Positions 173-14,505 are shown, counted from the stretch's first letter. The stretch is 14,505 nt of DNA from Candidatus Vampirococcus lugosii (GCF_018420025.1 NZ_JAEDAM010000021.1:1-14505), one strand, 5' to 3'. The notes: generated by a model not told the origin, from the letters alone. Program-made: numbers and translations.

Positions 173-493
173 ATGAGTGAAGAGAATAAAATCTATATAA
201 TAATTTGAAAAGAAAGTCCTACAAACAAAATATTGTCAAAATTATTAAAAGAACATATTAAAGAAACTGAATGAATTAAAGATAAAAATATATTACCAGC
301 TTTAGAAAATAGTCTTACAGAAAAAACATCATTAAAAAAATTTATAAAAGACATATTAGAAATTACTAACAATAAGAAAATTGAGTTTATTTCTTTAAGT
401 TTTAGGAATACAAAAGATGAAGATATATCATATATTAATTCACTTCAAAAAGAATTTTCAATTAAATCATTTGAAGAATATTTACTTTCTTAA
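173..493 (+). CDS. hypothetical small protein (106 aa, table 25)
   Basis: ATG at 173 and TAA at 491-493. The frame is open only if two in-frame TGA are sense (MSEENKIYIIIGKESPTNK...SFEEYLLS). No motif recognised. Its 3' end overlaps the convergent gene 482..1231 by 12 nt. Confidence 0.4.
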
Positions 494-1231
494 TAAATTA
501 AAAAAGTAATTTATTAAACTATCAACTTTATTTTTATTAAAATTATAAAATATCTGATTTTGTGGATTAATTTCATTTATTATTTTAATATATTTATTTT
601 TTTCTATTGGAGATAATATAGAATAAATTCAATCATCATCTTTACCTAAGTCTCATATACTAAATAAATCATATCAACCTTTTTTAAAGTTAAATCAATT
701 TATATATAAAATTCAACTAGAAAAATTCTTATATAATATAACATAAGAATAATATCACTCATCTTCAATATTTAATCTTTTTTCAGCTCAAGGAGATAAT
801 AATAAAGATTCATAATCTTTAATAACTTTAAGATCTGAATATTTTCTTTTATTTTCATCATAATATTTATAACAATAGATAATATTACTTGCTTCAAATT
901 TTCAATCATTAACAATGATAGGATATCCTTCTTTAGACTGCAATTTAATTAAAGGTCTAAACTCTTCAAAAGCTAATTTATTTTGAATTTCACTATTTTT
1001 ATTAAATTTATAAGCCAAATATCAAACAACAATAGCTACTATAAAACTTCAAACTCATCATAACACTTGAAACCATTCAGCAGAATTTTCACTAAAAAAT
1101 AAAAAATTAAAAGATAATCAAAAAGAATTAATTACACTTTCAAAGTATAATCAAAAAAGGAAAAAGAAAATTGAAAATAAAACTACTATTATTTTATAGT
1201 TTGAAGTGATTTTTTTAAATATTTTTATCAT
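482..1231 (-). CDS. hypothetical membrane protein (249 aa), two N-terminal TM helices plus an unknown soluble domain
   Basis: ATG at 1231 (minus), 18 nt after the hsdS stop; TAA at 484-482. Hand translation is uninterrupted with TGA=Gly (MIKIFKKITSNYKIIVVLFSIFFFLFGLYF...VLGGVGSFIVAIVVGYLAYKF...NYFFNLLRK). Two hydrophobic segments are followed by a roughly 170-aa Tyr/Asp/Lys-rich domain I do not recognise. Confidence 0.5.
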
Positions 1232-1249
1232 AACAATAAACTTAATCAG

Positions 1250-2656
1250 TTAAAATTCTTTATTTTCCAAAAATTCAATTGCTTTTGTTTCATCTTGTTC
1301 TATAAAGATTTCTACAGATTTTTTTGCTTTTTCCAATAGATTTTTTGAATTTTCCAATGCTTTGTGTGAATCTTGTACTAATTGAGCTATTTTTGATTGA
1401 ACTTTTTCATCAAGTTTTGGTAGTATAAATTTAGCAAAATCATTTTTATTACTTGCTTCTAAGATCATTCCTCTTGCAGTTCTTTTCAATAGTTCTCTAT
1501 AAATCCAAGATTTCATTAAAATTAAATTTGTTTCAGCATTAAAAAATTTTGGTTTCAATATAAAAAATCAAGTAGAAGCAACAAAATCTTCTTTATTATG
1601 ATCAACAATAGCTACTTTCTCAGCAGAACCACGAATAGAAGAAACAAGAACATCATTTTTTTCTATTTTCATTTGTGCCCTACTTGGTAAGTCTTGAGAT
1701 AATATTTTATTATTTGAATTTACAGTTCCCAAACTTGCATTTATATCTGCAAGTTCTATATATTGAAAAGATTTGTTTTCCTCTTTTTTGATTCTTTTAT
1801 TTGAAATTGTTATAAGATTATCTAAATGATCCCATCATCAATGATAGTTTTTAATTTTTTCTATAATTTCATCATATTTTGGTTGGAAAAATTCAGCATC
1901 TATTCTTCAGAAAATATCTATTTCTTTACTATCTTTGATAGAAATATTGTTTTCTGTAGGTTGATAATCTTCTAATCAAATTTCTTTTAGCAATACTTGT
2001 TCAGCTTGTGAATATAGTTTTTTTGATTCTTCTCTTTGTTGGTAAGATTCTTGAACAAGTTCAGCTATTTTTTGTTGGAAAGAATTTGAAGGAATAGGAA
2101 AAGGTAGGTTATCTAATATATAAGTTGGAAATCTTGGGTGCTCATTTCATTCTTGACTATAAAATAATATTTTTTGAACTTCTTCAGTAGATAGAAATAT
2201 ATATAAAAATTCAGGCAATAGTCAATTATTAGTTTTTAATGGTAGCAATTCAGTTGTTGTATATACTAAATCATCAAAAATAATTCAAACTTGTTGTAAA
2301 TACGGTCTCAAACGAGAAATAACAACTATTTTATTTCATACAATATTTTTTGTGCTTTTTATATTAGAAACTTTAGATTCTATTATCTCATTTATTTGAA
2401 AATTTCATATATTTTCTAGTTCTAATAATTTTATTACTTCATTTTGATTTTTATAATTTTTGGGACTAAAAGTTTTTTTATCAAAATAAAATAATTCTCA
2501 TAATTTACAATATTTTTTAGATTTTAAATAAGATATAGAATTTATTTTTTTAGGATGATAAACTTCTGCTCATATTCTATAAGAATATTCCAAATCTTTC
2601 ACTTCCACAATTGAAACATCAAGATTTTTTTGTTCTATTATTTGTTGGTAGGTCAT
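1250..2656 (-). CDS. hsdS: type I restriction-modification specificity subunit HsdS (468 aa)
   Basis: Continuous frame with table 25 from ATG 2656 to TAA 1252-1250. It has two target-recognition halves, each opening with the family motif (RIGAEVYHPK and RIDAEFFQPKY). There are two conserved coiled-coil spacers (FQQKIAELVQESYQQREESKKLYSQAEQVLL and VQSKIAQLVQDSHKALENSKNLLEKAKKSV), which is the classic internal duplication of HsdS. Confidence 0.9.
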
Positions 2657-4095
2657 TGGTTTTTAAGACTATTTAAAATTTTTATCATTTCTTGTATAGA
2701 ATTATCTAATTCTTCCTCTGAATAATCATCATTATGATTATTCTCTGGATGATGAATAGAATGTCTTATATATTCTTGAAGTGAAACATCAATTTCTTTT
2801 CATTTAATTCAATTTTTATCTTTAACCCATTTTTTTGTTTTATCTATTTCATTTAATTCAATTTTATTTTTTATTTCTAAATATCAATAAAGCTCATTAT
2901 GAAATTCAACTGTAGGTAAATTATAAGCATAATAATTTATTTCTCACCAAGAAGGACTATATTTTCAAAATAATCAAAAGTTTTCAGCTGTATTTTGTAT
3001 TTTTATAGTTTCATCTTCTTTAGTAAAAATATTTACTTTTTTTAATTTTCATCAAGTTTCTTTAAAAATATATGGAGAATGTGTTGTTAAAAAAATTTGT
3101 TGTGTTTCTGATAACTTATTTAATGCTTTAATAAGTTTTATTTGAGCTTTAGGATGTAAACAAATTTCAGGCTCATCAATAAAAAAATAAAATGGTTTTT
3201 TATTTTTTTCTTCTGATTCTGGCAACATATTTATATATACTTGTAATAAAGTTAATGCTATAGCTCTTTGCATTCAACTTCATTTCTCATCTAAAAAAGT
3301 TTTTGTTCCATCATCAACTTCAATTTTTGTATTTTTAAAATATGAACTAACATCTAAATTTTCAAAGTGAAAGTTTATTTTTGCATCTCAAAATTGTTCT
3401 TTAAAAGTTGTTTCTACATCTTGTCAAATTTCATTCAATTTTGATTTTAAACTATTTTCTCAATCATTAAAAACTTCATTATATTTTTTCTCAAAATCAA
3501 TATATTCTTGACTATCCTTAAATCATTCAGATATTTTTGAAATCAATTTTCAAACTATAGTTGTACTTCAAAATTTAGTTATTTCTTCTGGATTTGTATC
3601 TGCCCAAATAAAATCAATGTCAAAATATTGTTTAAAAGATTTATCAAATCAAGTAGGATTTTCATATTGCAAAGATTCAAAATTATAAACTCATAATTTT
3701 TTAATATTCATATCAACAGACTTTTTTCATCATTGATCAATTACTTTTTTCTCTGAACTTCTTCATAATTTAATTAATTCCATTCAATCATCTAATTTTT
3801 GAATATATTTTTCATATTTTGGTCTTAAATTATCTAATGAATTTCAAAGCATTTCAATTTTAACTATTACAGGATTATTTTTATTGTTTTTATTTTTTAA
3901 ATCATCTTCATTACTTCATTTTGGTAGTCAAGAAAATAAAAAATTAACAGCTTCAAAAACTGTTGATTTTCAAGTATTGTTTTCTCATATAAAAAAGTTT
4001 AATCAATTATTTTTTTGATTTGGAAAATTAAAATCTATTTCAGTTTTTCATCAAAATCATTTAAAATTTTCAATTATGATCTTTTTTAAAAACAT
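2638..4095 (-). CDS. AAA/ABC-type (SMC/OLD/AAA_15-21-like) ATPase with a C-terminal R-x4-H (HEPN-like) domain, embedded in the type I R-M operon (485 aa)
   Basis: ATG at 4095 and TAA at 2640-2638. N-terminus is FLKKIIIENFKGFGGKTEIDF. Walker A is GENNTGKST, with both glycines encoded by TGA. Signature-like GSGMQRAIAL, Walker B FYFFIDEPEICLHP and H-loop LTTHSP are present. The C-terminal ~140 aa (KYSPSWGEINYYAYNLPTVEFHNELYGYLE...LQEYIRHSIHHPENNH...) contains RHSIHH, which fits R-[NHD]-x3-H. The gene overlaps the hsdS start by 19 nt. Confidence 0.85.
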
Positions 4096-4120
4096 TTTCA
4101 ATCAATTTTAAAAAACTAAA

Positions 4121-6052
4121 CTACTCACTCAAAAAATTAAAATCTTGTTCTTTTCACCACTGCACAAAAGCATCTGCTATATCCATCAAATCAGTTTGTA
4201 ATACTCTATTTTCATTTTCATCTTCTTTATATACATAATCACCACTATTATCTTTGAAAGGTAATTTGGAAGTAGCAAAAAATATTGGATAATTTTTAAC
4301 TTTTGGATTTCATCACTCATCAAGTTCATCTTCTTTCCATTTTTGTAAAAACAATACTGATGTTTTTGTTCAAGTATGAGGTTTAAAAGCATTTTGATCC
4401 AATCCTACTACTGACAAAATCCTTGCTTTTTTCATGATAAAATCACGAATATGTTCTTCTGATGTATTATTAAAAACTCATTGAGGCAAAACTATTGCAA
4501 GTCTTCAACCAGGTTTTACTACAGATAAATTTCTTTCTATAAATAAAATATGTCTTGAAGTTTGACTTACAAGCTTTCATTTTTGATTTTTACCTAAATC
4601 ATAATCAGATAACAATCTTTTGTCTGCTACTTTACCAGCAAAGGGAGGGTTTGCCAATAGCACATCAAATTTTAGTTCTTTTAAACTTTCTTTGTTTTCT
4701 TTATCTTTTTTAATATCTGAAAATTCTTGTATAAGATGAGATCTTTCTAATTCATATTTTATAGGTGATTTATGCCAATTGTTTGTATCCAAAGAATTAA
4801 GTTTGAAAATATGACTTTTACCATCTCAAGCTATAAGCATAATAGCCCTTGAAATCTTGGAAGTTCTTTCATCAAAATCTATACCAAATAAATATTTTTT
4901 TGCATATCTATCCCTAAAATCTGAATCAGAAGCTTTTGGAAAATGTTTTTCTCTTACATATTTCATAGTATGCACCAAAAATCAAGCACTACCACAAGCT
5001 GTATCTATTACATAATCTTTTTTTCAAGGATTCAACATTTTTACACACATATCAATAACTACTCTTGGTGTAAAATATTGTCCTTTCTCTCATTTACTAG
5101 ATTTTTGTATAAGATACTCAAATGCATCATCTATCACTCTTAAATCACTTCCAAACAATGATATATTTTCAAGTAATCAAACACATAAAGACAAATGTTC
5201 TGGTGATAATTTAATTTTATCTGTTGTTTCAAAAATATCATATTGCCATTCTTCTTTTGCTGATTCAAAAAGTTCATCTATTGCATCTTTAGTTTTTTGT
5301 AGATTTTTACCATATTTTCTAAAAAATAGTTCTTCATTTTGTCTATCTTTTGCCTCTGTTTCATCAAATAATTTTGCAAATATTATTTTAAAAATCTCTT
5401 CAAATGCATCAAAACCAGTATGAGCCAAAACTAATTCTTCCAAGTCTAAAATTACTTTTGAAAGATCTTGTTCTTCAAGGTCTGATAAAGTTTTCTTTTT
5501 CTTAAAAAGATCTTCTACTTCTTCACCATATTTTGGAATGTCTCAAAGTGTATCAAAGTCAGCTGGATAAGGTCTATATAAGATAGTATGTACTTGTCAG
5601 TTCAAAGCAACTCATATAGGAGCTCATTTTGCATTTAGATAACTTTTCAATTGTTCAAGATCATTTTTTTGTCATGGAGCTTTTAGTTCTATTACAATTT
5701 TTTCTGTAGTATTATCATCACTATATACTACAACATCTACTCTTTTATGATCATATTTTTCTCTACCAAATTGGACATCAACTTCAGTATCTATAAGTTT
5801 TTTTGGATATTTATATTTTTTGATCAATTCATCTATATATAATTGTTTTACTATCTCTTCTGGTGCAGATTTTCAAGTTGTTTCATTATATATAAGTCTT
5901 TCTTCTTCTCTTCTTCATAATGATTTAATATAATATTTACCTTCTTCTCAATCTTTTGTATAAAATTTTAGATTTTCAAGATTATCAAATAATAATAATG
6001 ATTTTTCAGGGTTTGGAAAAATTTTTTTTAAAACTTCTTTAGTATACACCAT
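4121..6052 (-). CDS. hsdM: type I R-M N6-adenine DNA methyltransferase HsdM with an N-terminal HSDR_N-like (PD-(D/E)xK-type) domain (643 aa)
   Basis: ATG at 6052 and TAG at 4123-4121. SAM motif I is VIDTACGSAGFLVH and catalytic motif IV is LLANPPFAG. PGGRLAIVLPQGVFNN and AFKPHTGTKTSVLFLQKW are typical HsdM. The N-terminal ~160 aa carry RVDVVVYSDDNTTEKIVIELKAPGQKNDLEQLKSYLNAKGAPIGVALNGQ (D...ExK). Confidence 0.92.
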
Positions 6053-8916: not shown

Positions 8917-11484
8917 TTATTCTTTGATACCTGAATATTCTATTAAAAATTTGGATATATCTCTATTTATAAATCAAGCTGTACTTCCTCATCGTTCTGA
9001 TTGTCTAGGACGACGAACTTGAGTAATTATAACATATCTTGGATCTTTGGCAGTAGTAACTCATGCAAAACCTCATATAGTCCATCATGCACCAGATTGA
9101 TAGGATCATTGAAAAGCAATTTGAGAAGTTCATGATTTTCATCATACACTATAAAAAGGAATTCAAACCATACTTCATAAATGTTGTTCATCTTCCATAT
9201 CTAATATATCTCACATAGCTTTTAACATTTTTTCAGAAGTTTCTTGAGAGAATATTTTATGCCCCAATTTAGGTTCAAAATAAGTATATTTATCTGTTTC
9301 TCTATTATATATTTTATCTAATATTGTAGGTCTAACACTATATCATCAATTAATCATTGTAGAATATGCACTAGCTAATTGAATTGGAGTTATTAATAAT
9401 CATTGTCCAAAACTATTATTGAAGAATCTAGCCATAGAAAAATCTTCTAAACCAGTAACTCTACCAGATTCTTCACCTGCAAGTTCAATTCAAGTAAGTT
9501 TACCAAATCAGAGTTTATCCAAATAAGAATAAAAAACATACCTTGTAGTTTTTTGAACTATTCTTACCATTCACACATTACAAGACCAATCAAGTGCATT
9601 AAGAAAAGTTTTATATCATTCACATTGAGATTGAACATTACTTATAGTATAAGGTCAAATTTCAACACTTCATTCATCTTCATAACGATCATCAAGCTCA
9701 ATTTCATCAGAATCAAGTCAAATTGCTGTAGTAACAGATTTAAAAGTACTACCAGGTTCAGAAGGATAAGCTATATTTCTATCTATAAATACTTGTGGTC
9801 ATAATTTATTTGTAAAAACATATTTTTTTAAAGTTAAATCTTTCCTTTCAGAATAAGTTGTCATTCTCAAATCTCAATCATCATTTAACAAAACAGGAAT
9901 ATCAATATATTGATCATCATCTACAATATCTCTTTGATCATAAGATAATGGCTCAATGTTGTAATAATCAGAATAAGAATTTGGATCATAATTTGGATAA
10001 TTTACAGATGCTTTTATTTTACCAGTATGAGGATCCATAACCAAAACTGATATAGTATCAGGAACTAATACATTATAATATGTTTTTACAATTCTTTCTA
10101 CATTTTCTTGTATAGTAGGATCTATTGTAAGATATACATCAGAACCATTAATAGGATTTTTTATTTCAAAATTATTTGAACCAACAATTCATATCCATGG
10201 TACAGATACTCAAACCATTTGTCAATCTATTCATTTAAGGATATCATCAAAATATTCTTCTACTCAATAAAATCATTTTCATTCATTATTTATATATCAC
10301 AAAATATGAGACATAAAAGATCAATAAGGATAATATCTTTTTTGACTTTTTTCATAACCTAATCAATGCAATAAAGGTACAGAATCTATTGTTTCAGTAA
10401 AATATTTTTCTTTAAGATCATTTATTTTTTGAATAATTTGACCTGACACATTATCTGCTATTCTTACATATCTTATTTCTCTTTCTTGTAAGCTTTTGAC
10501 AATTACTTCTTGAGTATAATTATATCAATGTTTATTAAATAAATCTAAAATTTCCCTACTAGTACTATTAATATTATTTACTTTAGTAGGAATGAAATAA
10601 AGATAATTTCAAACTATAGAAATATAATCTTTATCCAAATTTTCAAGTTTATTAAGAAAATTATTATTATCAAAATATCAAAAATAATTTGCTTTTCTAA
10701 TTCAAGGTTTGGTAATATCAGATAATTTTTCTGATATAAGCTCATATGCATCATCTTGAGAAAAATCATCAATAGCTTCTTGAGTTTTTAAATCAAAAGA
10801 TTGTTGATCAAGAAAAATTTCTTGAGAATCTCAAGTTAAGAAAAAAGTTTTTTCTTCTTGTGGCAATATTTTAACTCAAGAAAAATCTTCTATATTTCTT
10901 ATACATGTAATTTCATCTGGAACTTCAAGTCCAAATTGTTCACAAAAATGTTCATATAAAACTGGTGTTATTTTTTCTACAAATCATTCTCTATCATTAA
11001 TAAATCATGGATCAGCAAATATAGTATATATATTAATATTTTCAGTAAGTTTTCTTTCATTTCAAGAGTTATCAGTTACAAAAATATTTCATCTTTTAGC
11101 AGTCAAAGTAGTATTACTAGCATGTTGAGTAAATAATTTTTTTTGATATTCTTTTGCATTTACAACTTGTAAATAAAATAATCTACCAAAAATAATCATA
11201 AATAAAAAAACAAAAAATCAAATTATTTTTATTTCTTTACTTGAATTTTGTAAAATATTTACATATTTATTTGATTTAGTTCTTTTTCAAAATCTTGATC
11301 TAATTTTTTCATAATAAAATGTTAATTTTCTATATATTTTATCTTTCAAAATATTATCTTTTTTTCTTTTATTATTTTTTTTTCAAAATTTATAAACAAA
11401 ATTTTTGTAATACAAAAATACATTTTTTAATATTTTATTTTTCAAAATATTATCTTTTTTTCTTCTATTATTTTTTCTTTTCAT
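8917..11484 (-). CDS. class B penicillin-binding protein (PBP2/FtsI-type peptidoglycan D,D-transpeptidase), up to 855 aa; start uncertain
   Basis: TAA at 8919-8917. The TM anchor GFFVFLFMIIFGRLFYLQVV is followed by AKRGNIFVTDNSGN, RYYPYG and HILGY. Transpeptidase motifs are EPGSTFK (SxxK), DWSCN (SxN), FGQGLLITPIQLASAYS and GGKSGTSQ (KSG). The first in-frame ATG is at 11484, giving an 86-aa Lys-rich region before the TM helix. An alternative TTG lies at 11349. There is also a ~35-aa acidic insertion between NYPNYDPN and EPGSTFK relative to typical PBP2. Confidence 0.88.
11334..11380. repeat. direct repeat copy A (~47 nt) in the PBP 5' region
   Basis: TATATTTTATCTTTCAAAATATTATCTTTTTTTCTTTTATTATTTTTT matches 11430-11476 with 2 mismatches by my manual alignment. 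The offset is exactly 96 nt. Confidence 0.7.
11430..11476. repeat. direct repeat copy B (~47 nt) in the PBP 5' region
   Basis: Partner of 11334-11380. On the minus strand both copies read in the PBP frame as (K/R)RKKDNILK(D/N)KI. Confidence 0.7.
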
Positions 11485-11509
11485 ATACAAAAAAACTTAT
11501 TTATTTAAA

Positions 11510-13768
11510 TTATTTATTTGATTTTGGCAATGGTTTAGCATTTTTACAATCTGGATATTTATTACAAGCAAGAAAAGGTCATCTTTTACTTTTTTTTACC
11601 ATCATTTTTCATTCTCAACATTTATCACAAGTTTCACCTCAATATTTTTCTTCAAGTTTTTCTATTTTTTCATCAGGTATTTTTCATATCCATTTAACTT
11701 CTGGGTATTCACTACTTGCCAAAAAAGGTCAAAATCTTCAAATTTTTACAACTATTGTTCATCATTCAGGACAAGGTTTTCATTCAAATTTTTCTTTTAA
11801 TGAATCAAGTTTTGATTTTTCTTCTTCAGATTGTCTTATATATTTACAATCTGGATAATTACTACATCAAATAAATTTTCACATTTTTGAAAATTTATAT
11901 ACTAATTCATTTCAACATTCAGGGCATTTTTCTCATACAATCATTTGTTCAGCTTCAGCATTATCAGCATTTTTTAATTCTTTTTCAAATTTTGTCCAAA
12001 AATCTTTCATCAATTTTTTCCAATCTTTTTCTCAATGAGAAACTTTATCCAAATCTTTTTCCATTTTGGCAGTAAATTTGTAGTCCATAAGATTTCAAAA
12101 TTGTTTTTCCAAAAATTTATTTACAACAAAAGCTATCTCAGTAGGAAATAATTTTTTTGCTTCATCTTTATCAACATATCATCTATCAATAATAGTTCAT
12201 ATTGTTGGTGCATAAGTTGATGGTCTACCAATTCATAATTCTTCCATTTTTTTTACTAAAGAACTTTCTGTATATCTACTTGGTGGTTTAGTAAATTGTT
12301 GGTAAGCAGATATTAATTTTGAATTTAATGTTTTTCATTTATTCAAAGATGGCAAAATTTCTTCATTACTAGGATAAGATCATAAAAAATCTTTATATAT
12401 TCTATAAAATCAATCAAAATAAATTGTTTGTCATTTAGATAACCAAATTTGATCTTTATCTTTTTCAGGACTAAACTCATAAGTAATATTTTCAGCAATA
12501 GCTTCACTCATTTGACTTGCTATAGTTCTAATCCATATCAATTGATAAAGCATTTTTTCTTTACTAGCAAGAGATGTTTCATCAGGTGATTTTTTTATAT
12601 TTGTAGGTCTTATAGCTTCATGAGCTTCTTGAGCAGAAGATCATTTAGTTTTGAATTGTCTAGTTTTTACATAATTTTCTCAATATTTATCTTGTATAAA
12701 TCATTTACAAGCTCAAATTGCTTGTTTGGAAAGATTGCAACTATCAGTTCTCATATATGTAATATATCAATTTTCATATAATTTTTGTGCTACCATCATA
12801 ACTTGTTTTACTCACCATCAAAACTTATTTGAAGCTTGTTGTTGTAATGTAGAAGTTATAAATGGAGCTTGAGGATTCTTTTTTGATTTAGTTTTTTTAA
12901 TATTTATTAATTCAAAATCTATTCAAGATTTATAATTTAATACTTTATTTCATGTTTTTTTATCTTTACTTTCTTTAGGTTTTTTTAAATCTAAATTAGT
13001 TAAAGATTTATCAACATCTTTTTCATTTAATAATTTTATTTTTTTATTTTTAATTTTATCTAATTGAGCTATTAATCATTCTTGTCATTCAAAATCCGTA
13101 ACTATTTTCCAAGATTCTTCAGGTTCAAAAGATTTTATTTCATTTTCTTTTTCTATTACAAGTTTTACTGCAACGGATTGAACTCTTCATGCAGAAAGTC
13201 ATCTTTTTACTTTTTTCCACAATACTGGTGAGACTTTGAAACCAACTAATCTATCCAAAACTCTTCTTGCTTGTTGACTATTTACAAGATCTATATCAAC
13301 TTGTCTAGGATTGTCTATAGCATTTTGTAATGCATCTTTTGTAATTTCATGAAAAACAATTCTAGGAGTATCTTTCAATTTTAATTTAAGTGCCGTCAAT
13401 AAATGCCAAGCTATAGCTTCTCATTCACGATCTTCATCAGTTGCAAGCCATACTTTTTCATAATTTTTTGCTAATTTTTTTAGTTCTGTTACTGTTTTTT
13501 TCTTATCAGGCATAACTTCATAAGTAGTTTCAAAATTATTTTCTATATCAATACCAATTCATTTTTTTGGTAAATCTATAATATGTCCCATACTAGCAAC
13601 TATTTCATAATCATTTCACAAAAATTTTTTAATTGTTTTAGATTTTGCTGGAGACTCTACAATAACTAAATTTTTACCATAACTATTTGCAATTATTTTT
13701 TTCTTTGTTGTTTTGGTACTAGTTTTCTTTGTAGTTGTTTTATTATTTTTTTTGGTAGATTTTGGCAT
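11510..13768 (-). CDS. topA: DNA topoisomerase I (type IA), 752 aa
   Basis: ATG at 13768 and TAA at 11512-11510. Toprim region is [34 protein letters not shown] and ATDEDREGEAIAWH. WKKVKRGLSAGRVQSVAV has both Gly encoded by TGA. The active-site Tyr region is [19 protein letters not shown] is present. There are three C-terminal zinc-ribbon repeats (CPECG...CSNYPDC; a degenerate CPEGG...SSEYPEV; CDKCG...CNKYPDC). The N-terminal ~25 aa form a Lys/Thr-rich tail. Confidence 0.96.
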
Positions 13769-13808
13769 AAATAAAAATATTTATTTTAAATAAATTATAT
13801 AATAAATT

Positions 13809-13836
13809 GTTTATATTAGTTTATTTATTTTTTTCA
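13809..13836 (-). promoter_or_regulatory. candidate sigma70-like promoter for topA
   Basis: The minus strand reads TTGAAA (13836-13831), a 16-nt spacer, then TATAAA (13814-13809), about 40 nt upstream of the topA ATG. Such hexamers arise easily by chance in DNA this AT-rich. Confidence 0.25.
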
Positions 13837-13928
13837 AGAAAAAATTAAAGTAAAATATATAAAATATAAAATTATACTTAAAATTTTAATCTTCTACACT
13901 AGAAAAATAAAAAACAACAAAAGACAAC

Positions 13929-13956
13929 TTGAAAAAGATAAAAAAAATAATATAAT
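13929..13956 (+). promoter_or_regulatory. candidate sigma70-like promoter driving the mini-ORF/repeat/pilin region
   Basis: TTGAAA (13929-13934), a 16-nt spacer, then a perfect TATAAT (13951-13956), about 40 nt upstream of the ATGs at 13997 and 14005. AT-richness lowers the specificity of this call. Confidence 0.3.
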
Positions 13957-13996
13957 TTAAATGTTGGAAATTAATTAATATTTAATATTGAAAATT

Positions 13997-14125
13997 ATGA
14001 AAAAATGAGTAAATTTAGTTGTGAGTTGTGAGTTGTGAGTTGTGAGTTGTGAGTTGTGAGTTGTGAGTTGTAAATTAGATAGTTTATGTATAAATAATTT
14101 TTGAGTTAATAAAAAAACATGATAG
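13997..14125 (+). CDS. candidate leader mini-ORF (42 aa) spanning the heptanucleotide repeat; an alternative overlapping 22-aa ORF lies at 14005..14073
   Basis: ATG 13997 gives MKKGVNLVVSCELGVVSCELGVVSCKLDSLCINNFGVNKKTG, stopping at TAG 14123-14125 inside the left arm of the downstream hairpin. ATG 14005 gives MSKFSCELGVVSCELGVVSCEL, stopping at TAA 14071-14073. Both are open only because TGA is sense. I have no evidence of translation. Confidence 0.2.
14017..14071. repeat. heptanucleotide microsatellite (AGTTGTG)x7 plus a partial eighth unit
   Basis: Seven perfect tandem copies occupy 14017-14065 and a 6/7 copy occupies 14066-14071. The tract is conspicuously G-rich relative to its AT-rich surroundings. 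The unit length is not a multiple of 3. Confidence 0.97.
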
Positions 14126-14148
14126 ATTTTTTTCTATTGTGTTTTTTT
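14111..14148 (+). terminator. intrinsic-terminator-like hairpin (A-tract/stem/loop/stem/T-tract)
   Basis: AAAAAAACATGATAGA (14111-14126) pairs with TCTATTGTGTTTTTTT (14133-14148). That is 16 pairs including 2 G-U wobbles, with a 6-nt T loop. The core CATGATAGA/TCTATTGTG is followed by T7. It lies between the mini-ORFs and the pilin ATG. Confidence 0.5.
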
Positions 14149-14215
14149 ATTGATTTAAGAAAAAATCAATACAATATATTTTATATATATTAAATACAAT
14201 AAAAAATGAGAAACA

Positions 14216-14505
14216 ATAAATGATTTACATTAGTAGAAGTTGTGGTAACAGTGTGAATTATCGCAATATTGGCGGTAGTAGGATGAATTAGTATTAGTAT
14301 TTGGGTAAGTAAAGCAAGGGATGCACAAGTGGTAAACAATGTGCAGACTGTAGCATGAGGACTTGAAACTTATCATATTAAGAAATTTGAATTTCCTGAA
14401 CCAGATGGGAATGTTTTGACATGAAATTTGGAACAGTGAATGATATGATCTTGAGTGATGAAGAAATTATCAAGTTTTGTAAATGTAAAAAATTTATCAA
14501 ATTCT
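14216..14505 (+). CDS. type IV pilin / pseudopilin-like protein with a prepilin N-terminal cleavage-methylation motif (3' partial, runs off the window)
   Basis: ATG at 14216. MRNNKGFTLVEVVVTVGIIAILAVVGGISISIW is the canonical (K/R)GFTL(V/I)E signal followed by a hydrophobic helix. The invariant -1 Gly is encoded by TGA. The frame stays open to the window end. Confidence 0.8.

What the first reader, a model, noticed from the sequence alone, without database searches (positions are those of the whole stretch)
1250..6052. Type I R-M cassette without hsdR: hsdM, an embedded ATPase, then hsdS
The module contains an intact HsdM and an intact two-TRD HsdS. I found no SF2 helicase/nuclease (HsdR) gene anywhere in the 14.5 kb. 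In its place a 485-aa ABC/AAA_15-21-type ATPase sits between M and S. It starts 25 nt after the hsdM stop and overlaps the hsdS start by 19 nt. The junction reads CAATGACC, so an ATGA-type start/stop overlap is read through as Gly for four more codons under table 25. This spacing implies co-transcription and probably co-translation. Genes embedded in type I R-M operons are precedented by prrC and the Campylobacter rlo genes. Those precedents sit in complete M-S-R operons, whereas here the ATPase may be the only effector partner of an M2S-type recognition complex. I saw no transposase, integrase or flanking repeats around the cassette, and its neighbours are ordinary metabolic and envelope genes.
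Basis: partly seen in the sequence, partly recalled or inferred. Interest (0 to 1): 0.7.

Follow-up and report, generated by a model that had tools for sequence, protein, structure and literature searches.

The report
Self-contained restriction system hosting ATPase
This is not a type I restriction system missing its motor: the "methylase" carries its own DNA-cutting domain, as in BcgI/BsaXI-type enzymes, and the ATPase wedged between the two genes is a mobile stand-alone defence gene that is usually found alone.

Summary
The three genes are real: minus strand, UGA=Gly, with the stated 25-nt gap and 19-nt overlap. No helicase is encoded on the contig. The interpretation needs revision.

(1) The "HsdM" (643 aa) is a nuclease–methyltransferase fusion. 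Its N-terminal PD-(D/E)xK domain has invariant E90/D106/E122/K124, which align with the mutagenesis-proven catalytic residues of the type IIB enzyme BsaXI, its closest solved homolog. In 86 loci of this family, none has an adjacent HsdR. Lacking hsdR is therefore the family norm: a BcgI/BsaXI-like (RM)2S system.

(2) The ATPase belongs to a widespread family of about 480 aa. It has an OLD/AriA/GajA-like ABC head and a family-specific C-terminal domain with an invariant R-x4-H motif and HEPN-like topology. About 80% of sampled members are solitary (prophage, integrase-adjacent islands, IS-flanked on plasmids). Others sit inside complete type I operons that do have HsdR.

(3) The M|S junction of this RM family is a recurrent landing site for RNase-type toxin genes (MNT+HEPN, NYN, Fic, PDDEXK_3).

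Best reading: a type IIB-like R-M module with an embedded PrrC-style back-up defence gene. This is a new member of a known kind, of moderate interest.

The parts
4121..6052 (-). RM fusion subunit (annotated hsdM / N-6 DNA methylase), 643 aa: nuclease, helical connector, gamma-class N6-adenine methyltransferase
   Evidence: ORF under table 25. Pfam HSDR_N_2 + N6_Mtase + Eco57I. Top solved homolog is RM.BsaXI. Identical to NCBI protein P0121.
5534..5863 (-). PD-(D/E)xK nuclease domain of the RM subunit (aa 64-173), with invariant E90, D106, E122, K124
   Evidence: Pfam HSDR_N_2 E=1.9e-19. Invariant in alignments A3/A4. Aligned residue for residue to BsaXI E73/D90/E105/K107; the catalytic role of those residues is from PMC11997821.
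4139..5137 (-). N6-adenine methyltransferase domain (aa 306-638), with motif I D350-x-A-C-G354-S355-x-x-F358 and motif IV N468-P-P-F471
   Evidence: Pfam N6_Mtase E=1.2e-41. Motifs invariant in A3.
4096..4120 (-). 25-nt spacer between the RM stop (TAG) and the ATPase start (ATG)
   Evidence: Read directly from the sequence.
2638..4095 (-). Embedded ABC-type ATPase, 485 aa (VAMP_36_45; NCBI name 'ATP-dependent nuclease')
   Evidence: ORF. Pfam AAA_15 E=1.5e-32 and AAA_21. PADLOC Old/AriA/GajA/PtuA heads. 100% identical to P0001. Listed as an HGT gene by the genome's authors.
2986..4095 (-). ABC ATPase head (aa 1-370): Walker A G37-ENNTGKS, signature KGSGMQR, Walker B FFIDEPE, H-loop TTHSP
   Evidence: Invariant columns in A1. 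Foldseek matches to GajA, OLD, retron PtuA/Eco8 and Rad50 heads.
2641..2982 (-). Family-specific C-terminal domain (aa 372-485), HEPN-like: invariant H399-N400-E401 in helix 2 and R444-x4-H449 (IR[HN]xIHHPEN) at the end of helix 3
   Evidence: Alignments A1/A2. AF2 model pLDDT 87.8. 1,032 cluster representatives, domain almost always C-terminal in proteins of about 450-510 aa. HEPN hallmarks from PMC3710099. No significant Pfam, Foldseek or hhalign match.
2638..2656 (-). 19-nt overlap of the ATPase 3' end with the hsdS start. The ATGA motif is read through (UGA=Gly), giving the tail G-P-T-N-K.
   Evidence: Read directly from the sequence. Close homologs have C-termini of variable length.
1250..2656 (-). 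Specificity subunit (HsdS-like), 468 aa, two target-recognition domains
   Evidence: PADLOC Specificity_I and mad5 matches in both halves. PDB type I S subunits 5ybb_D/3okg at 44 bits. 31% identical to the S of L005 over residues 146-465.
482..1231 (-). Downstream 249-aa membrane protein, 18 nt after hsdS. It is adjacent and possibly co-transcribed, but it is not a conserved member of the cassette.
   Evidence: No family in Pfam, PADLOC or NCBIfam. Not homologous to the 248-aa protein at the same position in L001.

Best explanation
There are two nested defence modules.

Module 1 (host). This is a two-subunit, type IIB-like (BcgI/BsaXI-type) restriction-modification enzyme. The 643-aa 'HsdM' is an RM fusion: a PD-(D/E)xK endonuclease, a helical connector and a gamma-class N6-adenine methyltransferase. 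With the two-TRD S subunit it is expected to assemble as (RM)2S, recognise a bipartite site, methylate it using SAM, and cut unmodified DNA near the site using Mg2+, without ATP and without any HsdR translocase.

Module 2 (guest). Inserted at the RM|S junction and co-transcribed is a horizontally mobile, single-gene ABC ATPase. Its head is of the OLD/AriA/GajA type. In place of a Toprim nuclease it carries a family-specific C-terminal domain of about 110 aa with an invariant R-x4-H motif and HEPN-like topology. By analogy with PrrC/RloC, it most likely acts as a latent RNase held in check by its ATPase head, providing second-line (abortive-infection or back-up) defence.

Shown: gene structures, domain content, conservation of catalytic residues, and context statistics. 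Inferred: subunit stoichiometry, cleavage mode, RNase activity, and any cross-talk between the two modules.
For: RM subunit.
- Pfam HSDR_N_2 + N6_Mtase, with no HsdM_N.
- E90/D106/E122/K124 and the MTase motifs I and IV are invariant across 12 sequences down to 27% identity.
- RM.BsaXI is the top solved homolog for the single sequence (106 bits) and for a profile that excludes BsaXI-like sequences (132 bits, E=1.9e-37, against <=80 bits for any classical HsdM). BsaXI's catalytic E73/D90/E105/K107 (PMC11997821) align to the invariant tetrad.
- 0 of 80 metagenomic loci and 0 of 6 genomic loci of this family have an HsdR-like gene within up to 10 kb. S lies directly downstream in about 55 of 80.

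ATPase as autonomous cargo.
- More than 1,350 homologs, conserved along the full length at 40-45% identity across phyla.
- About 66 of 80 genomic loci have no R-M gene nearby.
- It is solitary between N and cI of an Edwardsiella prophage, next to the integrase of a phage-like island in 10 of 5,426 E. coli genomes, and IS-flanked on plasmids.
- It lies inside complete type I operons with Pfam-verified HsdR in L018, L020, L023, L058 and L062, and with a phmmer-level HsdR call in L025.
- It shares the M|S slot with Fic (L053) or PDDEXK_3 (L005).
- It is on the authors' HGT list.

The slot is a hotspot. MNT+HEPN, DUF4145, NYN+DUF3800 and small R-x4-H proteins are inserted between M and S in other family members.

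HEPN-like tail. All five hallmarks listed in PMC3710099 are met: size, four helices, a variable H2-H3 insert, Rx4H at the end of H3 with N/H after the R, and an acidic residue in H2. That paper also describes ABC-HEPN fusions in R-M operons with Fic/Doc and in prophages.
Against: - No enzyme of this particular 640-aa RM family has been characterised here, so type IIB behaviour (bilateral cleavage, ATP independence) is inferred from homology.
- The nuclease-domain alignment to BsaXI is weak on its own when BsaXI-like sequences are excluded (15.8 bits, E=0.036).
- PADLOC and NCBI label such proteins type I methyltransferases.
- S matches solved type I S subunits, not the BsaXI S.
- A trans-acting HsdR elsewhere in the genome cannot be excluded.
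- The recurrence of a 74%-identical ATPase at the RM|S junction of two unrelated RM lineages in Absconditabacteria hints at more than random insertion.
Confidence: 0.62

Rival explanations
1. First reader's model. An HsdR-less type I M2S recognition complex uses the embedded ABC ATPase as its sole, dedicated effector, forming a new ATP-dependent restriction system.
For: Tight operon packing: a 25-nt gap and a 19-nt overlap. The M-ATPase-S order recurs in L001, L005 and L053. The ATPase is 74% identical between two Absconditabacteria genomes although the flanking RM and S genes are unrelated lineages. About 17% of family members lie next to R-M genes, far above chance.
Against: The M subunit already carries a conserved nuclease. 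80 of 80 metagenomic members of the M family lack the ATPase, and none has HsdR. About 80% of the ATPases are solitary, and some sit in complete type I operons with HsdR. The slot holds interchangeable cargo: Fic, PDDEXK_3, MNT-HEPN, NYN.
Confidence: 0.08
2. A classical type I system whose HsdR is encoded in trans on another contig (for example VAMP_74-20_334). The N-terminal PD-(D/E)xK domain of M is then accessory or regulatory.
For: The genome paper reports three type I restriction enzymes and lists a 'type I site-specific deoxyribonuclease' on contig 74-20. PADLOC's best model for M is labelled MTase_I (587 bits). S resembles solved type I S subunits.
Against: 0 of 86 loci of this M family have a linked HsdR, which is unexpected if HsdR were a required partner. 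M lacks HsdM_N. The nuclease tetrad is invariant. The type IIB RM.BsaXI is a closer homolog than any HsdM.
Confidence: 0.1
3. A modification-only module (orphan methyltransferase plus S) used for epigenetic marking. The nuclease-like domain is catalytically silent, and the ATPase is an unrelated passenger.
For: CPR genomes are reduced, and solitary M-S pairs are common. No cleavage data exist for this family.
Against: All four catalytic nuclease residues are invariant down to 27% identity, which argues for selection on catalysis. The M|S slot attracts defence and toxin genes, as expected of a defence locus.
Confidence: 0.1
4. A reduced MADS (methylation-associated defence system): MAD2 (MTase), MAD3 (ATPase), MAD5 (S).
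For: NCBIfam hits to MAD2 (296 bits), MAD3 (37 bits) and MAD5 (91 bits), in the same gene order. PADLOC mad2 and mad5 hits.
Against: All three scores are far below the curated cut-offs (720, 420 and 400). The MAD3 match covers only the ATPase core (residues 274-361). The other MADS genes are absent from the contig. That MADS has eight genes is from my own recollection of Maestri et al. 2024, which I could not read here.
Confidence: 0.03

Closest known systems
Type IIB restriction-modification enzymes of the RM+S class (BcgI, BsaXI, BveI)
   Same: Two genes: an RM fusion with an N-terminal PD-(D/E)xK nuclease (E...D...ExK tetrad), a helical connector and a gamma-N6A methyltransferase (NPPF), plus a separate two-TRD S subunit. 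There is no translocase. RM.BsaXI is the closest solved homolog.
   Different: Only about 25% identical to BsaXI-like sequences. The protein is 643 aa, like BcgI RM by my recollection, against 916 aa for BsaXI, so the BsaXI C-terminal 'paddle/knob' region is absent. No biochemical data exist. Databases annotate the family as type I M. An extra gene sits between RM and S.
PrrC in the EcoprrI type Ic operon; RloC; Campylobacter rlo genes
   Same: An ABC-type NTPase head with a small C-terminal domain carrying an R-x(n)-H motif, encoded inside an R-M operon next to hsdS. The family also occurs on prophages and with Fic/Doc neighbours, as described for ABC-HEPN proteins.
   Different: A different ATPase family: AAA_15/AAA_21 of OLD/AriA type, with no AAA_13 hit. 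There is no detectable sequence similarity to an RloC-like prophage protein of APEC O1. The host system here is type IIB-like without HsdR. Anticodon-nuclease activity is untested.
OLD-family nucleases (P2 Old, GajA of Gabija) and PARIS AriA
   Same: The best PADLOC matches to the ATPase head are Old (164 bits) and AriA (113 bits, full head). Foldseek top hits are GajA and Ts OLD. It is a single-gene mobile defence cargo, like P2 old.
   Different: No Toprim domain, and no adjacent AriB/GajB partner. The C-terminus is an unrelated helical domain.
ERFG_01251 group of ABC-HEPN proteins (Anantharaman et al. 2013)
   Same: Described as an ABC ATPase (with the NTD shared with Toprim proteins) fused to a HEPN domain, sporadically near CRISPR-Cas. 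One member here (L016) lies 6 kb from a CRISPR array, and members occur in Neisseriaceae and E. coli.
   Different: Identity with that group could not be tested because the sequence was not retrievable. The tail here shows no profile similarity to MNT-type 'classical' HEPN.

Membership tests
Classical type I R-M (HsdR2M2S) | HsdM with an HsdM_N domain followed by N6_Mtase | tested here: not met
   Pfam finds N6_Mtase but no HsdM_N; the N-terminus is HSDR_N_2. Genuine HsdM proteins in L020, L023, L010 and L054 do show HsdM_N.
Classical type I R-M (HsdR2M2S) | Linked HsdR (SF2 translocase plus nuclease) | tested here: not met
   None on the contig. 0 of 86 loci of this M family have one within up to 10 kb. 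An unlinked HsdR elsewhere in the genome is not excluded.
Classical type I R-M (HsdR2M2S) | HsdS with two TRDs | tested here: met
   PADLOC Specificity_I matches in residues ~50-220 and ~275-450. PDB type I S subunits at 44 bits.
Type IIB R-M, RM+S class (BcgI/BsaXI) | RM fusion with an N-terminal PD-(D/E)xK nuclease carrying the conserved E-D-ExK tetrad | tested here: met
   E90/D106/E122/K124 are invariant and align to BsaXI E73/D90/E105/K107, which PMC11997821 reports as catalytic and conserved across type IIB.
Type IIB R-M, RM+S class (BcgI/BsaXI) | Gamma-class N6-adenine MTase in the same chain, collinear with a type IIB RM subunit | tested here: met
   NPPF and motif I are invariant. Profile match to RM.BsaXI at 132 bits, E=1.9e-37, the top PDB hit.
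Type IIB R-M, RM+S class (BcgI/BsaXI) | Separate HsdS-like subunit and no translocase | tested here: met
   S lies downstream. No helicase on the contig or in 86 related loci.
Type IIB R-M, RM+S class (BcgI/BsaXI) | Cleavage on both sides of a bipartite site; SAM- and Mg-dependent, ATP-independent | not testable with these tools
   Requires biochemistry.
OLD-family nucleases / Gabija GajA | ABC ATPase head | tested here: met
   PADLOC Old at 164 bits and GajA models. Foldseek GajA and OLD.
OLD-family nucleases / Gabija GajA | C-terminal Toprim nuclease domain | tested here: not met
   Matches stop at about residue 362-374 of 485. No Toprim in Pfam. The C-terminal model is a helical domain.
PARIS (AriA/AriB) | AriA ATPase with an adjacent AriB (DUF4435/Toprim) partner | tested here: not met
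   AriA-like head at 113 bits, but no partner gene here or in the solitary contexts.
PrrC/RloC anticodon nucleases | Rad50/SbcC-like ABC NTPase head of the PrrC/RloC family (Pfam AAA_13, by my recollection) | tested here: not met
   No AAA_13 hit; the hits are AAA_15, AAA_21, SMC_N and AAA_23. No similarity to the RloC-like APECO1_RS04465.
PrrC/RloC anticodon nucleases | Embedded in or linked to an R-M operon | tested here: met
   Here and in about 14 of 80 loci, including complete type I operons.
HEPN superfamily (for the ATPase C-terminal domain) | About 100-120 aa, four helices, a variable H2-H3 insert, Rx4-6H at the end of H3 with a polar residue after R, and an acidic residue in H2 | tested here: met
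   114 aa. H1 12-20, H2 25-43 (invariant E401), variable hairpin, H3 68-77 ending in R444-[H/N]-x-I-H-H449, H4 89-108. Criteria from PMC3710099.
HEPN superfamily (for the ATPase C-terminal domain) | Significant sequence-profile or fold match to a known HEPN family | tested here: inconclusive
MADS (methylation-associated defence system) | MAD2/MAD3/MAD5 equivalogs above the curated cut-offs, plus the remaining mad genes | tested here: not met
   296/720, 37/420 and 91/400 bits. No other mad genes on the contig.

The most novel reading that the evidence does not exclude
The ATPase may not be a mere passenger. It could be a guard that docks on the (RM)2S complex and fires its C-terminal nuclease when phage anti-restriction proteins disable the R-M enzyme, in the manner of PrrC/EcoprrI-Stp or PARIS-Ocr. 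This would be a previously untested OLD-head/HEPN-like-tail defence family that has repeatedly chosen the RM|S junction of type IIB-like and type I systems. The hint is a 74%-identical ATPase held at that junction between two unrelated RM/S lineages within Absconditabacteria. In addition, the 640-aa 'HsdM' family (thousands of members, 0 of 86 with HsdR) would be a large, unrecognised reservoir of type IIB-like restriction enzymes, especially in CPR bacteria.
Probability: 0.2. Interest if true: 0.65.

Novelty: new member of a known kind. Interest (0 to 1): 0.4.

Why it matters
It corrects a likely systematic mis-annotation. A very large family labelled 'type I M protein / N-6 DNA methylase' (more than 7,900 database hits) looks like self-sufficient BcgI/BsaXI-type nuclease–methylase fusions. 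This would expand a class for which the BsaXI structure paper modelled 16 identified enzymes, and which is useful for 2b-RAD-type methods.

It also identifies the RM|S junction as a landing pad for RNase-type toxin genes. And it flags an uncharacterised single-gene ABC-ATPase defence candidate that also occurs in E. coli mobile elements, where it can be tested directly. For Vampirococcus and other recoded CPR bacteria it adds to the evidence for layered defence or DNA-scavenging systems in tiny genomes.

Tried and rejected
This was solved through the homolog search.
- MADS membership was considered because of NCBIfam and PADLOC hits, and rejected because the scores are far below the cut-offs and the other mad genes are absent.
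- I tried to equate the family with APECO1_4465. The supplement is not held. The prophage-borne AAA ATPase I located in APEC O1 (RS04465) is RloC-like and unrelated, and I could not confirm that it is APECO1_4465.
- ERFG_01251 could not be retrieved.
- g1 (249 aa) was tested as a fourth cassette gene and rejected: it is not homologous to its positional counterpart in L001.
- The promoter/terminator scan was uninformative in 20% GC DNA (51 sites against 56 expected).
- The phage genome collection gave no hit.
- The first BsaXI profile result (414 bits) was inflated by including the BsaXI-like L001 sequence. It was repeated without that sequence.

Full report
**What is in the window.** The window is AT-rich (about 20% GC), and under table 11 its reading frames are shattered. 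With UGA read as a sense codon, long minus-strand ORFs appear. UGA falls on conserved glycines: the Walker A motif GENNT-G-KST, the ABC signature and the MTase motif I ACGSA-G-F. Table 25 is therefore correct. The genes of the finding are an 'hsdM' at 6052..4121 (643 aa), an ATPase at 4095..2638 (485 aa) and hsdS at 2656..1250 (468 aa). A 249-aa membrane protein follows 18 nt after hsdS. The remaining genes are DUF1295, DUF2103, an Rce1-like CAAX protease, a SAM methyltransferase, PBP2, topoisomerase I and a pilin. No helicase or ResIII protein is present.

**Where it comes from.** The ATPase and the 'HsdM' are 100% identical to NCBI proteins of Candidatus Vampirococcus lugosii on a contig of exactly 14,505 bp, so the window is a whole contig. 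In the genome paper (PMC8080830) this is contig VAMP_36. The ATPase (VAMP_36_45, 'predicted ATPase') is on the authors' list of 126 genes acquired by HGT. [quoted passage not shown] Absence of hsdR from this contig therefore says nothing about the genome.

**The 'HsdM' is a nuclease–methyltransferase fusion.**
- Pfam finds HSDR_N_2 (a PD-(D/E)xK nuclease domain; residues 64-173, E=1.9e-19) ahead of N6_Mtase (306-638), and no HsdM_N.
- Across 12 family members down to 27% identity, E90, D106 and E122-x-K124 are invariant. So are MTase motif I and NPPF.
- The best solved homolog is RM.BsaXI, the RM subunit of a type IIB enzyme, not a type I HsdM. It scores 106 bits for the single sequence.
- A first family profile scored 414 bits, but it contained the BsaXI-like L001 sequence. 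A clean profile of window-type sequences still gives 132 bits, E=1.9e-37, against ≤80 bits for EcoKI, StySJI and other HsdM proteins.
- In both profile alignments, BsaXI residues E73, D90, E105 and K107 fall on the invariant tetrad (my count along the printed alignments). [quoted passage not shown] In the clean profile the nuclease segment alone is weak (15.8 bits, E=0.036), so this residue correspondence is supportive, not conclusive.
- That paper also describes the RM+S class of type IIB enzymes (BcgI, BveI and others) as having R–connector–M subunits plus an HsdS-like subunit, which is the architecture seen here.

**Lack of HsdR is the family norm.**
- Three further members on long contigs (L086, L087, L088) are M–S modules with no ResIII gene within ±10 kb. 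The same holds for L001 and L053.
- A metagenome scan gave 80 more loci (about 929 kb). None has any ORF matching five HsdR queries of two families at E≤1e-3.
- The only large ORFs with a Walker A/DExH signature are, by inspection of their sequences, DnaX, a SNF2/RapA-like helicase 8 kb away, two VirB4-type ATPases and Lon.
- In about 55 of the 80 loci an S gene lies directly downstream, usually overlapping or abutting M.
- None of the 80 carries the ATPase.

The hsdR-less state is therefore not special to this locus and is not associated with the ATPase.

**The ATPase family.**
- There are more than 1,350 homologs of about 480 aa, conserved along the full length at 40-45% identity across very different phyla.
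- The head is a canonical ABC ATPase. PADLOC's best matches are Old (164 bits), AriA (113 bits), GajA and PtuA, all restricted to roughly residues 1-370. Foldseek on the AF2 model (pLDDT 78) finds GajA, Thermus OLD, retron PtuA/Eco8 and Rad50 heads.
- There is no Toprim domain.
- The last ~110 residues carry the invariant motifs SPxWGEINYxAY…EFHNELYGYL and YIR[NH]xIHHPEN.
- A profile of this tail finds 1,032 cluster representatives among 1.84 billion proteins. The domain is almost always at the C-terminus of proteins of about 450-510 aa, so it is specific to this family.

**Genomic contexts of the ATPase.** Of 80 loci from one-genome-per-species contigs, about 66 have no R-M gene within reach.
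- Solitary examples: between N and cI of an Edwardsiella lambdoid prophage; among housekeeping genes in Psychrobacter; next to the integrase of a small phage-like island beside rcnR in 10 of 5,426 complete E. coli genomes; and IS- or recombinase-flanked on Klebsiella and Lactobacillus plasmids.
- About 14 loci are in R-M contexts. Complete type I operons with Pfam-verified HsdR are:
  - L018: A–S–R, EcoEI type.
  - L020: M(+S)–A–R, EcoR124 type.
  - L023: M–A–…–R.
  - L058: R–M–x3–S–A.
  - L062: R–M–…–A.
  - L025 (M–…–A–…–R) has an HsdR call at the phmmer level only; by eye its sequence closely resembles L023's.
- RM|S insertions in type IIB-like systems occur in L005 (RM–A–PDDEXK_3–S), L053 (RM–Fic–A–S) and L001 (BsaXI-like RM–A–S).
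- L005 and L053 have 95%-identical RM genes but different cargo and a different first TRD, which shows rapid turnover in this slot.

**The slot is a hotspot.** Among the 80 metagenomic RM+S loci, about 14 have a 0.4-2.1 kb insert between M and S. The inserts are:
- an MNT plus HEPN (PF05168, E=2e-18) pair in L137, with the same pair by sequence similarity in L141;
- a weak DUF4145-type match in L109;
- a NYN RNase plus DUF3800 in L133;
- a conserved family of about 190 aa with an R-x4-H motif and no Pfam match in L099, L102, L103 and L138;
- another R-N-x3-H protein in L131;
- small membrane proteins in L105 and L112.

This matches the published observation that many HEPN clades, including ABC-ATPase–HEPN fusions, are embedded in R-M operons, often with Fic/Doc toxins, and also occur on prophages (PMC3710099).

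**Is the tail a HEPN domain?** Modelled alone, it folds confidently (pLDDT 87.8): H1 12-20, H2 25-43, a sequence-variable β-hairpin 48-67, H3 68-77 and H4 89-108. It meets every hallmark given in PMC3710099:
- size of about 100-120 aa with four helices;
- a poorly conserved insert between H2 and H3;
- a polar N/H right after the R;
- a conserved acidic residue in H2 (E401).

The family is not the RloC-like prophage ATPase I located in APEC O1. It may correspond to the ERFG_01251 group (ABC head shared with Toprim proteins, plus HEPN, sometimes near CRISPR). One locus here (L016) has a CRISPR array 6 kb away, but I could not retrieve that sequence to test the idea.

**Mechanism proposed.**
- Module 1: (RM)2S binds a bipartite site through the two TRDs. 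It methylates hemimethylated or self DNA and cuts unmodified DNA near the site with its own PD-(D/E)xK domains. It depends on SAM and Mg2+ and needs no ATP or HsdR. This is inferred from homology to BsaXI and BcgI.
- Module 2: the ATPase is co-transcribed from the same operon but functions autonomously. Its ABC head senses an infection cue or a nucleic-acid or nucleotide state and licenses the C-terminal domain, probably an RNase, to shut down translation. This is inferred from PrrC/RloC and from the fact that solitary copies need a built-in effector.
- Whether the two modules communicate, as PrrC does with EcoprrI, is open. A 74%-identical ATPase sits at the RM|S junction of two unrelated RM/S lineages (25% and 22% identity) in two Absconditabacteria genomes. 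That is the main hint that the position is more than accidental.

**Other readings considered.**
- MADS: NCBIfam scores are far below the cut-offs and the other mad genes are absent.
- OLD or PARIS: no Toprim domain and no partner gene.
- Trans-HsdR type I: possible, but disfavoured by the 0 of 86 linkage result.
- Methylation-only: disfavoured by the invariant nuclease tetrad.

The downstream 249-aa membrane protein is not conserved in the cassette.

**Verdict.** The locus is a BcgI/BsaXI-like RM+S module carrying a PrrC-style embedded defence gene of an uncharacterised but widespread family. Both concepts are known. The specific families are untested experimentally and largely mis-annotated. 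Interest is moderate.

Noticed in passing
window 4121-6052 versus 2638-4095: The share of glycine codons that are UGA differs sharply within the cassette: ATPase 0.97, hsdS 0.80, RM gene 0.57. The RM value is the lowest on the contig; other genes range from 0.72 to 0.94. The RM gene may be a more recent arrival in the recoded lineage than the ATPase it flanks.
   Followed up: partly
window ~11275-11484 (minus strand, N-terminus of PBP2): The PBP2 N-terminus appears to contain an internal duplication of about 35 aa (…NNRRKKDNILKNKILKNVFLYYKNFVYKFGKK / NNKRKKDNILKDKIYRKLTFYYEKIRSRFGKR…) ahead of the membrane anchor. This was seen in the translation only.
   Followed up: no
window 11304-11858 (+): A 179-184-aa plus-strand ORF with no in-frame UGA, antisense to the PBP2/TopA junction. 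It is F/Y/L-rich and low-complexity, and probably spurious.
   Followed up: no
window 13781-14505: A strand switch and a jump in GC skew (to +0.55) occur at the contig end, where a type IV pilin-like gene (N_methyl motif) starts on the plus strand and runs off the contig.
   Followed up: no
L005 7955-13393 and L053 6604-12915: RM genes that are 95% identical occur in MAGs assigned to Gammaproteobacteria and to Peribacteria. They have different cargo (ATPase+PDDEXK_3 versus Fic+ATPase) and a swapped first TRD in S. The two ATPases align only over their C-terminal 189 aa (76%). This is either very recent cross-phylum transfer or mis-binning, with recombination inside the ATPase.
   Followed up: partly
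L099 8704-9309, L102 4477-5055, L103 3849-4445, L138 3615-4196: A conserved protein of about 190 aa with no Pfam match is inserted between RM and S in four loci. It ends in YQIR[CN]xL[FI]HG (R-x4-H), making it a candidate unrecognised HEPN family.
   Followed up: partly
L058 6199-8137: Three small ORFs with no Pfam family lie between hsdM and hsdS of a complete type I operon. One carries an RNGLHH motif. The ATPase follows hsdS, and a PolB-like 3'-5' exonuclease gene follows the ATPase.
   Followed up: partly
L020 7726-9954: An HsdM fused to a single-TRD Methylase_S domain (736 aa) lies in an EcoR124-type operon, with the ATPase between it and HsdR.
   Followed up: no
L089 8998-10446 and L090 8998-10446 (E. 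coli): In 10 of 5,426 complete E. coli genomes the ATPase is the first gene after the integrase of a small phage-like element (capsid and tape-measure genes) inserted next to rcnR. This looks like a satellite or prophage cargo hotspot.
   Followed up: partly
L094 35932-38148 (E. coli APEC O1): A P2-like prophage carries a 738-aa RloC/PrrC-like AAA ATPase (C-terminal …YRYINRGSHSD…) in the cargo hotspot between the replication gene and the portal gene. It is unrelated to the family studied here.
   Followed up: partly
L016 17218-18428: An 18-repeat CRISPR array lies about 6 kb downstream of the ATPase homolog in Actinobacillus genomosp. 2.
   Followed up: no
L086 13476-15005: Downstream of one RM+S pair lie genes for PDDEXK_1, YgjP-like and GIY-YIG proteins, a possible small defence or repair cluster.
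   Followed up: no
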